Shown: one piece after another, positions 46,845 through 48,738 of the stretch
Layout: each line of letters opens with the position of its first letter
Position numbering within the stretch: position 1 is the first letter of the stretch
DNA from: Stylophora pistillata
Lineage: Eukaryota
Direction of reading: 5' to 3'
Assembly: GCF_002571385.2 (NCBI RefSeq)
Contig: NW_019217845.1
Location: forward strand, 683,956-747,955
Length of the DNA: 64,000 bases
Made by a program: the position numbers and the translations under genes
Notes under the pieces: model-generated
What the model saw: the letters and a program-made list of their open reading frames with translations, nothing else
Database searches by the model: none
Told to the model about the DNA's origin: nothing

Positions 46845-48738
46845 CTAGACAGCATTTTCTGACAGTAGTTTCGGGTGCAGACTCTGGCCACAACCGCGGC
46901 AGTCGATTTCATCATCGAAATCTTCAATGGCTGCTTGGCGTGGATTATAAGATCGGACCTCATTCACTGTTGCTATTCCACTCCACTTACTTCTGGTGGT
47001 AGGATCGCTGAGGTTTTCCAGATCAGCTCTGCGGAGTAGTTTGCCGTCTTTAACCTGAAACATGGGATAGTTGTTTCGCTCTTTAGGGTCAACAAACGGG
47101 ATGAAGTCGGTCACTTTACTTGAACTTGTCGCTTTCTGTGGATGTTGGAAGGCTTCGTAAACATGATTAACCGACGTCTGAACGGCAGTCACAGCAATTC
47201 TGTAATTTCCCTCGCTTTCTTCATCCAATAACATGCCATCGCCGTATGCAATCCACTTGTCTCCTCTCTTGTTTGTGACAGGCAGGCCACATTTGTTGTC
47301 TTCGTCGTGCATGTATTTACTCAGCAAGGAGCCAAATATAGTTGGAGTTACTTTCTTTGCTAATTCACGTCTGGGAGTCCTGAAAATTAAGTTTCAATTG
47401 ATCATGTTGTAAACTGTACTACAAGGTGGTCTTCGAGCCCATGGCCACTCTCAAAATTTACAAACAATCCTTAGCTTTTTTTCCTTTTTTTAAATTTGGA
47501 TTATTCACACTCACGCAATTATGTAAAGGATAGGACGAGGAAAAATGCTTTTCCATTGGAAAAAAGCCTCTCCCGCGCGCCTCCTTTTCTTTGATTCCAC
47601 TTGCCTCTTGGGATATTTCAACGCGCTATTCAAAGCCTTTCCTACACTGACTTTACAATTTGACTCCTAATGCGCAAAATGAATCCGGTCAAGGGAGTAG
47701 ACCTTGTTTGAAATTTCAGACATTGTCGTTCTTAATTATAAAAGCAATGAAAAGCAAGAGATTCGGTTAAATGTTCAACCCATTCCACTCCAAATTATAA
47801 TATAGTGGTTCATGCGTGATCCTTGTTTTGCCAATTTTCAATCTGCTCATTCCTCGGAGGGATTATTAGTCACCAGGCCTCACCTCACTTGTAGGGAATG
47901 AAATCAGGTGTTTAATCTGTATAAGATAGCTTTCCTACCTTAAATGGCCGCTTGAGAAGCTGTCTGTAAGGAAATGACAGGCAAACGCGTCGATAGAATA
48001 GGCTTCTTCCAGGACCTTTATCTTTTGGTCAAGGTATCCGGCTCTGGCTGCTTCTCTTGCCTTTTCCAGAGCTAATTCATGTCCGGCTAAATAAGCATCC
48101 TTCGCGTACGGTAGAAAATGGTCGTGATTGTTTAGAGCCAGCTTCATGATGCGGCCGAATATGAGCGGAACTCCAAACGCCCAATAACCACCAGTCGCCT
48201 TGTCCCATTTCTCCACTAGTGTGTGTCCGAGTTCTTCGTAGACCTAGCTAGGGATGGCTACTTTTCTTTCTTTGCTCTCTAGTGCAGCTTCAACCTCACT
48301 CCTTTCTTTAGTCATGATTTTCAATATCTGATCAAGTTCCTTTTTAATATGCTTGTAATCACCATTCGCCAACGTAGAATATGCTGCAGTAAAGCGGTCA
48401 CGACGGCCGGCCGGGATCTTTGCAGGATCTTCACTTGGATCAATGATGGGATGTTCGGGTACGCCATAGAAATCGCCCGCTAGGGCAATAATTTGGCCAA
48501 AACAGAGCTGCAACCCGTTGGGTAGCCTGAGTGGTCTATCGGCGCCCAAAACCTCCTGTCCTCCTCTTCCAGAGCCTGGAAATTGAAGCTTGACCTGGTT
48601 TCCTATGTTTTCATGTTCTGCTGCTTCGAATTCCTCTCCTCCAGGTTCACTGCTTGCAAGCGAACCAGGTGTTCGTTTGATAATGTTTATCAGCTGGCCA
48701 AACATGCTTTCTCCCTCCAATACTTCGTTTGATTCCAT
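46845..48738 (-). pseudogene. Zinc-dependent phospholipase C of the Legionella PlcA/PlcB - Pseudomonas PlcC type. Exons: 47939-48738 and 46845-47379 (444 codons), with one in-frame TAG at 48244-48246.
   Basis: Motifs FEAAEH, LPNGLQLCFGQIIALAGDFYG, NHDHF, AYLAGH, DAFACHFLTDSFSSGHLR|TPR, MHDEDN..GL, WIAYGDG. The GT-AG intron 47380-47938 restores HLRTPR. Confidence 0.8.

What the first reader, a model, noticed from the sequence alone, without database searches (positions are those of the whole stretch)
46845..48738. Bacterial-type zinc PLC domesticated in an animal genome (probable HGT, intron gained)
Seen: motifs of the Legionella PlcA/B - Pseudomonas PlcC family, with a canonical 559-bp GT-AG intron splitting the conserved GHLR|TPR motif. 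The gene sits among animal genes, so it is not a contaminant contig. Established: classical animal PC-specific PLC genes have remained unidentified, and this family is known mainly from bacteria and fungi. Inference: horizontal acquisition, or patchy retention of an ancient gene.
Basis: partly seen in the sequence, partly recalled or inferred. Interest (0 to 1): 0.7.

Follow-up and report, generated by a model that had tools for sequence, protein, structure and literature searches.

The report
Protease-gated coral zinc phospholipase C
A stony coral carries a real, spliced gene for a bacteria-like zinc enzyme predicted to cut membrane lipids, broken by a stop codon in this assembly, and its relatives in other corals keep a short front-end motif that likely lets a protease switch the enzyme on, possibly the protease encoded head-to-head beside it.

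Summary
The gene and its 559-bp GT-AG intron are real; RNA contigs skip the intron. Both exons match the Pseudomonas PlcC orthologue (41%, 37%). None of 7 runs laid carries it, but other individuals carry other disabling changes, so this copy looks recently decaying. The family is multi-copy across corals, intron included, and reaches octocorals. Coral members were already noted in print (PMC6617341). Transfer from bacteria is plausible but old, with no donor found, and it says nothing about the missing mammalian PC-PLC.

New here: the predicted fold matches zinc PLC/P1 nucleases starting at Phe37, the place of the zinc-binding Trp1. Just before it, this subfamily keeps G-E-E (Glu in 37 of 41); two sister groups keep a caspase-3-type D-x-x-D (18 of 18). 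A trypsin-like protease gene with a possible Glu-specific pocket lies head-to-head, also in a distant coral. Best reading: an enzyme held inactive until cleaved, likely in defence or cell death. Cleavage, activity and role are untested.

The parts
47939..48738 (-). Exon 1 of the zinc PLC-family gene (codons 1-267, ends inside the Arg of GHLR)
   Evidence: 41% identical to the Pseudomonas PlcC orthologue over 235 columns, E 2e-47
47380..47938 (-). 559-bp GT-AG phase-2 intron
   Evidence: skipped in RNA contigs of X7 and (short side) X11; same site and phase in 7 of 7 interrupted coral-like genomic loci
46845..47379 (-). Exon 2 (TPR... to stop)
   Evidence: 37% identical to the PlcC orthologue over 154 columns, E 4e-31
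48244..48246 (-). In-frame TAG at codon 165, upstream of five of the predicted metal ligands
   Evidence: 7 of 7 runs laid read a sense codon here
48631..48738 (-). 36-residue leader without a hydrophobic signal; predicted inhibitory propeptide
   Evidence: hydropathy proxy 0.82 against 2.2-3.7 for several non-coral rows; residues 22-36 pLDDT under 50 in the orthologue model; role inferred
48628..48639 (-). G34-E35-E36|F37, predicted cleavage site; F37 stands at the place of Trp1 of zinc PLCs
   Evidence: cleavage inferred
47944..47976 (-). H255-x3-D259-x5-H265 motif, same spacing as His118/Asp122/His128 of B. cereus PLC
   Evidence: ligand list from PMC10420013
47298..47309 (-). H291-D-E-D294, likely third-metal ligands
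   Evidence: His in 214 of 214 rows, Asp/Glu in 214 of 214; role inferred from order
46890..46901 (-). C-x-x-C in the C-terminal tail, found in this subfamily only
   Evidence: 9 stored proteins plus the window; function unknown
49457..50737 (+). Intronless trypsin-like serine protease ORF (426 aa), head-to-head, 718 bp from the PLC start; H140/D238/S352, with T347 and H378 at the likely 190 and 213 positions
   Evidence: Pfam Trypsin_2 E 1.4e-4, 23 bits, under the 27.6 cut-off; 62% identical orthologue head-to-head with the PLC in L102, gap 736 bp
48739..49456 (.). Divergent intergenic region; covered without a break by RNA contigs of X7 and X11; two short words shared with L101 (48908-48918 also with L102; 48820-48833)

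Best explanation
This is a real, spliced coral gene of the Pseudomonas PlcC-type zinc phospholipase C family, broken by a stop codon in this assembly, whose intact form is likely an intracellular enzyme kept inactive until a protease removes its 36-residue leader, possibly the trypsin-like protease encoded head-to-head. Shown: homology, splicing, intact His/Asp set, conserved G-E-E|F, conserved gene pair in one distant coral, several disabling changes among individuals. Inferred mechanism: cleavage at E36|F37 frees the alpha-amine of Phe37, which takes the place of Trp1 in a three-zinc site (F37, H42, D89, H207, H255, D259, H265, H291, D294); the enzyme then hydrolyses glycerophospholipids to diacylglycerol and a phospho-head group. 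Sister coral groups would use a caspase-3-type D-x-x-D|F instead. A protease-gated lipid hydrolase without a signal peptide fits a defence or cell-death effector; that role is the least supported step. The family is ancient in Anthozoa, probably from an old transfer. My odds: family and zinc hydrolase 0.9; phospholipid substrate 0.7; leader must be cut 0.55; neighbour is the activator 0.35; origin by transfer from bacteria 0.55.
For: Family: published plcC primer matches the start of the L034 ORF exactly; window exons 41% and 37% identical to it; all 27 columns checked are kept in the window. Fold: orthologue model pLDDT 81.6, pTM 0.83; the top 5 of 48,161 chains are zinc PLCs or S1/P1 nucleases, Z 5.7-7.7, rmsd 3.5-4.6, 136-153 aligned, and the alignments start at model residue 37-38 against B. 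cereus PLC residue 1 and alpha-toxin residue 2. Trp1 binds zinc (PMC10420013). Listeria PC-PLC is a proenzyme activated by a protease from the same gene cluster (PMC10149971). Leader: in a 41-row branch of a tree built without the leader, P1 Glu 37, P2 Glu 34, P3 Gly 35, while P4-P12 reach only 0.24-0.56; two other branches (4 and 14 rows) have Asp at P1 and P4 in 18 of 18, one reads DEVD; non-cnidarian rows have Glu 12 and Asp 1 of 163. DxxD is the caspase-3/7 motif (PMC10942788 abstract start). Pair: head-to-head in L102 at 62-68% identity; Thr190 and His213 mark Glu/Gln-specific pockets (PMC5508998). Run X7 has nonsense changes in both genes.
Against: No activity, cleavage or localisation was tested. 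Z under 8 is within the tool's range for common helical arrangements, Foldseek found nothing at E 0.001, and no residue-level superposition was given, so the ligand map rests on order and spacing. P. fluorescens PlcC, which has 17 residues before the same Phe, was reported as secreted without cleavage, judged by gel size (PMC2613904). Glu41 (203 of 214) could replace the amine, making cleavage unnecessary. A 39-row coral branch has no shared site. The rows are 90%-identity clusters with one origin per motif, and the DxxD set was picked after seeing the motif; its two branches are not supported as one clade. Phe at P1' is not the preferred caspase residue (recalled). The pair rests on one informative locus; two paralogue loci with about 2 kb upstream lack the protease. 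The protease's Pfam score is under cut-off, and the review says His213 does not itself decide Glu specificity. The copy is broken in several individuals, so it is dispensable in this species.
Confidence: 0.5

Rival explanations
1. A constitutive intracellular phospholipase C for lipid turnover or signalling; the acidic residues before Phe37 are structural or metal-binding, and the protease neighbour is plain conserved synteny.
For: PlcC reported active without apparent cleavage; conserved Glu41; a 39-row coral branch lacks a site; synteny from one locus.
Against: Two different protease-type motifs end exactly at the same Phe in separate branches, with variable sequence upstream and low model confidence there; a DxxD with variable middle residues is hard to read as structural.
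Confidence: 0.3
2. Same fold and gating, but the substrate is not a phospholipid: a nuclease or other phosphodiesterase like S1/P1 or Het-C.
For: S1/P1 nucleases are ranks 4, 5 and 8 of the fold search; the Phe-x4-His spacing resembles Trp1/His6 of P1 nuclease (recalled); the superfamily mixes both activities (PMC3482391).
Against: About 40% identity to a protein with shown lecithinase activity; three PLCs outrank the nucleases.
Confidence: 0.12
3. On origin: vertical inheritance from an early eukaryote with wide loss, the bacterial and giant-virus copies being partly taken from eukaryotes.
For: Published reading as eukaryote-like; fungi, giant-virus MAGs and intracellular bacteria have it; cnidarians + three unnamed sisters + fungi not rejected, p-AU 0.284; backbone unresolved.
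Against: Strict cnidarian+fungal clade p-AU 0.028; the nearest Atlas cluster is 69% bacterial; 421 GTDB matches; no named animal hit outside Cnidaria.
Confidence: 0.4
4. On this copy: the TAG is a consensus error at a heterozygous site, and the gene is ordinary and intact in this individual.
For: 7 of 7 runs read a sense codon, of two kinds; the window holds a third letter, A, here and at 47926, as if an ambiguity code had been flattened.
Against: No general excess of A among differing sites (4 of 11); the window differs from all four RNA runs at several other sites; other individuals carry a nonsense change, a 4-base insertion and a ligand loss.
Confidence: 0.4

Closest known systems
Pseudomonas fluorescens PlcC (PMC2613904; orthologue in L034, P0277)
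   Same: 41% and 37% identity over the two exons; all checked His/Asp/Arg columns; no signal peptide; a short leader before F-x-x-x-E-H.
   Different: Coral gene has an intron, a longer leader ending G-E-E, a C-x-x-C tail and a protease neighbour; PlcC is found in supernatants; not the nearest row in the tree.
Legionella PlcA, PlcB, PlcC/CegC1 zinc metallophospholipase C family (Aurass 2013, title seen only; PMC6617341)
   Same: PlcA is 43% identical to PlcC per PMC2613904; the review lists coral members in the same tree.
   Different: PlcA and PlcB are exported by signal peptides; no named Legionella sequence was compared here.
Zinc PLC / S1-P1 nuclease superfamily (B. cereus PC-PLC 1ah7, Listeria PlcB 8cqm, clostridial alpha-toxin 1olp, S1 nuclease)
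   Same: Predicted helical core, H-x3-D-x5-H, start at the Trp1 position; Listeria enzyme is a proenzyme activated by a linked protease.
   Different: 12-18% identity, large insertions, no significant Pfam Zn_dep_PLPC match, last ligand spacing H-x2-D against H-x3-E; no lipid-binding C-terminal domain.
Caspase-activated gasdermins (coral gasdermin, abstract start of PMC9871645)
   Same: Logic only: a membrane-attacking protein switched on by cleavage at a conserved site.
   Different: Unrelated fold; enzyme and not pore; N-terminal leader removed.

Membership tests
PlcA/PlcB/PlcC zinc metallophospholipase C family | Full-length homology to P. fluorescens PlcC | tested here: met
PlcA/PlcB/PlcC zinc metallophospholipase C family | Conserved His/Asp/Arg/Phe columns of the family | tested here: met
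   27 of 27 columns checked kept in the window read through with X; columns come from my alignment, as the defining paper was not held
PlcA/PlcB/PlcC zinc metallophospholipase C family | Direct similarity to named Legionella PlcA/PlcB | not tested
   no named Legionella sequence came up; link is through PMC2613904 table 3 and PMC6617341
PlcA/PlcB/PlcC zinc metallophospholipase C family | Zinc-dependent phospholipid hydrolysis | not testable with these tools
   needs an assay
PlcA/PlcB/PlcC zinc metallophospholipase C family | Intact reading frame in this assembly | tested here: not met
   TAG at codon 165; the window's copy is a broken allele or an error, the orthologue XP_029179392.2 is intact
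Zinc PLC / S1-P1 nuclease superfamily | Helical core fold | tested here: inconclusive
   top 5 VIA rows all of this superfamily but Z 5.7-7.7; Foldseek no match at E 0.001
Zinc PLC / S1-P1 nuclease superfamily | H-x3-D-x5-H ligand spacing | tested here: met
   H255/D259/H265 against His118/Asp122/His128
Zinc PLC / S1-P1 nuclease superfamily | Free N-terminal aromatic residue binding zinc | tested here: inconclusive
   alignment ranges start at F37; free only if the leader is cut
Pfam Zn_dep_PLPC (PF00882) | Score above the curated cut-off | tested here: not met
   1 of 27 members at E 0.11, the coral orthologue none
Glutamyl endopeptidases (neighbour gene) | His/Asp/Ser triad with Thr190 and His213 | tested here: inconclusive
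   H140, D238, S352, T347, H378 kept in both copies, placed by motif spacing only; model failed, pLDDT 33
Recent horizontal acquisition | Narrow range and nesting inside a named bacterial clade | tested here: not met
   present in five stony-coral genera and an octocoral; sisters unnamed, backbone open

The most novel reading that the evidence does not exclude
Corals have a family of zinc phospholipase C zymogens that act as protease-triggered membrane effectors: one subfamily is cut at G-E-E|F by a Glu-specific protease encoded head-to-head on a shared promoter, another at D-x-x-D|F by caspase-3, in both cases freeing the zinc-binding N-terminus. This would be a second cleavage-gated membrane-attack arm beside gasdermin, built from an anciently acquired bacterial enzyme and polymorphic for loss within a species.
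Probability: 0.3. Interest if true: 0.78.

Novelty: new variant of a known kind. Interest (0 to 1): 0.55.

Why it matters
If the gating is right, corals have an unstudied enzyme effector wired to caspases and to a dedicated protease. It makes diacylglycerol or damages membranes on demand, which bears on cell death, symbiont removal and disease lesions, and the two predicted cleavage sites make it testable at once. It would also suggest how this bacterial and fungal family completes its zinc site. As a transfer story alone it is modest: coral members are in print, the event is old and the donor unknown. It does not address the missing mammalian PC-PLC.

Tried and rejected
No whole genome is held, so copy number and a near-identical duplicate could not be tested. 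Pfam and NCBIfam give no family for the PLC; PDB sequence searches found nothing significant; Foldseek nothing at E 0.001. No close relative of P0004 was found: 6 of 401 genomes of one order matched, best 44%; 22 metagenome loci, best segments 29-49%; so its source is unknown. The protease had no plasmid match; a partial PADLOC match (PDC-S45, E 2e-5, 53 residues) is a lead only. No kB site and no shared IRF or TATA site in the intergenic region. The careful 92-row tree did not finish; a 46-row subset was used. The idea that ambiguity codes became A throughout was not borne out by counts. Contamination was rejected (intron, splicing, neighbours, RefSeq orthologues). A paper search for the EukProt id style found nothing. 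Earlier scan notes held nothing on this gene. Searches for coral members in print gave PMC6617341 only; subscription papers, Aurass 2013 among them, and supplements were not seen, so the coral HGT tables may list the gene.

Full report
Observation. The gene lies on the minus strand: exon 1 48738-47939, a 559-bp GT-AG phase-2 intron inside the Arg codon of GHLR|TPR, exon 2 47379-46845, 445 codons. Of 4 RNA runs laid, X7 shows the exact joint with 64 letters on the short side, X11 with 27 (under the 31-letter bar), and X16 and X17, whose pieces are identical and may be one data set, show none. X1, X3 and X5 run from exon into intron. Neighbours are pentraxin exons and animal transposons. GC and GC3 (0.45) are like those of neighbouring coding stretches. 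It is a host gene of a stony coral; its nearest named relative is A. millepora XP_029179392.2, 81-85% identical by exon.

The missed stop. Codon 165 is TAG, upstream of H207, H255, D259, H265 and H291. I laid 7 of the 20 holding runs; all 7 read a sense codon, of two kinds. That alone suggests an error or a private allele. But other individuals are damaged elsewhere: X7 has a nonsense change at codon 336 in its only contig there; X11 and one X7 contig have a 4-base insertion at codons 289-290 with E293K; P0179 has D259N. X7 also has a nonsense change at codon 44 of the neighbouring protease. A 13-base deletion near the end affects only the last residues. X16/X17 show no listed disabling change, but 35 rows were not shown, and contigs cannot be phased. 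Among 20 listed coding substitutions (codon 165 and one site inside the insertion left out) 12 change the protein and 8 do not, against 22% silent expected (p 0.06). Between species dN/dS is 0.07-0.16 with dS near saturation, and the window's branch is no longer than A. millepora's (0.075 against 0.083). The family is conserved; this copy is decaying recently or is polymorphic for loss. A near-identical duplicate cannot be excluded without a genome.

Family. A scan of GTDB genomes gave 421 relatives; the best 80 are all Pseudomonas at 38-42%. The published plcC primer matches the start of the 384-aa ORF of L034 exactly, and the exons are 41% and 37% identical to it. A profile finds 4,062 clusters at 50% identity. 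Named members include fungi, Caedibacter, Myxococcales and Chlamydiales and two giant-virus MAGs. In corals it is multi-copy: 229 hits, 120 listed, named in Acropora, Montipora, Porites, Pocillopora, Oculina and the octocoral Dendronephthya. Three EukProt rows (P0087, P0093, P0194) have no organism given; I recall the id style as a jellyfish's, untested. 92 of the 120 end exactly at GHxR, and 7 of the 22 loci are interrupted at this motif, all 7 with AG|GT, in both paralogue groups; the rest are continuous, partial or not coral-like.

Origin. In a careful tree of 46 rows (chosen from 214 plus additions) cnidarians are one clade (100/96), joined by unnamed P0009/P0326 (98/92) and P0004 (100/97); fungi are separate (96/91); the backbone is open. 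A strict cnidarian+fungal clade has p-AU 0.028; with the three unnamed rows, a group named after seeing the tree, 0.284. One of the six 'fungal' rows (P0331) was assigned by tree position only. So: one old origin, before octocorals and stony corals split, donor unknown. PMC6617341 (passages and section 11) already lists coral members and reads the family as eukaryote-like. PMC4878875 (passages, table 1 only partly seen) has no word 'phospholipase' in its main text. The mammalian PC-PLC gene is indeed unidentified (PMC10420013 passages), but nothing here reaches mammals.

Structure. The orthologue's model (pLDDT 81.6, pTM 0.83) had no Foldseek match, but the five best of 48,161 chains by VIA are three zinc PLCs and two S1/P1 nucleases, Z 5.7-7.7. 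That is modest, yet coherent, and agrees with H255-x3-D259-x5-H265, the spacing of His118/Asp122/His128. The alignments begin at residue 37-38 against residues 1-2 of the PLCs. F37 thus stands where Trp1 binds zinc; that it does so through its free amine is recalled. The rest of the ligand map is inferred from order.

Gating. Of 132 ids, 111 had the motif and enough length. In a tree built without the leader, a 41-row branch holding the window's allele has Glu at P1 in 37, Glu at P2 in 34 and Gly at P3 in 35, with P4-P12 at 0.24-0.56; two branches of 4 and 14 rows have G-x-D-x-[VI]-D|F in 18 of 18, one DEVD; a 39-row branch has short, varied leaders. Non-cnidarian rows show Glu 12 and Asp 1 of 163. 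DxxD is the caspase-3/7 consensus (PMC10942788, abstract start only). Head-to-head, 718 bp away, lies an intronless trypsin-like ORF; L102 has the same pair, gap 736 bp, protease 62% identical; it was the only locus of 111 with the protease and the only one of this subfamily with enough upstream DNA. T347 lies five residues before the catalytic S352 and H378 in the last strand, as Thr190 and His213 of Glu/Gln-specific enzymes (PMC5508998 passages). RNA contigs of X7 and X11 run from exon 1 through the gap and, by their lengths, past the protease stop; a contig does not show a single transcript. Listeria PC-PLC with its linked Mpl is the precedent (PMC10149971 passages; section 24).

Against. 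PlcC was reported uncleaved by gel size (PMC2613904 passages); Glu41 might replace the amine; each motif is one evolutionary event; the protease could not be modelled and scores under the Pfam cut-off; nothing was assayed. PMC3482391 (passages) shows the superfamily mixes nuclease and lipase activity. PMC11696984 (one passage) lists CegC1 as a domain without a classified fold. Aurass 2013 was not held; only its title was seen.

Verdict. A known family, its coral members already noted, here as a broken or decaying copy. The new part is the likely zymogen design with two protease-type switches and a linked protease; searches found no paper on it, within an open-access library. New variant of a known kind; interest 0.55.

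Noticed in passing
window 49457-50737 (+); L102 1120-2415: Intronless trypsin-like protease family with no PDB or plasmid relative; weak partial match to candidate defence model PDC-S45; nonsense change at codon 44 in run X7.
   Followed up: partly
P0112, P0142 and 16 others: Coral paralogues with invariant G-x-D-x-[VI]-D just before the first conserved Phe, a caspase-3-type site.
   Followed up: partly
L081 2845-4149, L082 2812-4116: Giant-virus MAGs encode members with an N-terminal hydrophobic segment, each followed by a similar 360-aa unknown gene.
   Followed up: partly
P0004, P0009, P0326: Unnamed uninterrupted ORFs that are the supported sisters of the cnidarian clade; P0004 has a signal-like start. 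Their source decides the transfer question.
   Followed up: partly
window 48820-48833 and 48908-48918: Short non-coding words shared with L101 (the second also with L102); the X16/X17 RNA contig ends at 48908. The 11-mer also occurs in 9 Pseudomonas loci, taken as chance.
   Followed up: partly
window 47380-47938: Intron-covering contigs in polyA runs are deep (34.5 against 49.2 for the joint in X11), from retention or DNA; exon 2 contigs are 4-5 times deeper than exon 1.
   Followed up: no
window 27605-28012 (+) and 52615-53043 (-): Two near-identical pentraxin-domain exons in opposite orientation flank the region.
   Followed up: no
window 18096-18509 and 22772-23455 (+): Two similar exons ending in a hydrophobic tail (NPFC...PGATG), no Pfam match; perhaps tandem GPI-anchored proteins.
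   Followed up: no
window 38062-39897 (+), 8290-9261 (-), 7136-7696 (+), 42085-43869 (+): Intact Mutator-like transposase, PIF/Harbinger-type DDE transposase beside a YqaJ-like ORF, and a broken non-LTR reverse transcriptase.
   Followed up: no
Atlas: A VWA7_N cluster scored 0.78 against the core, a lead that this family and Het-C/VWA7 domains share the fold.
   Followed up: no
P0007, P0014, P0039, P0049: Non-coral members fused to FG-GAP, fucose-lectin or discoidin domains.
   Followed up: no
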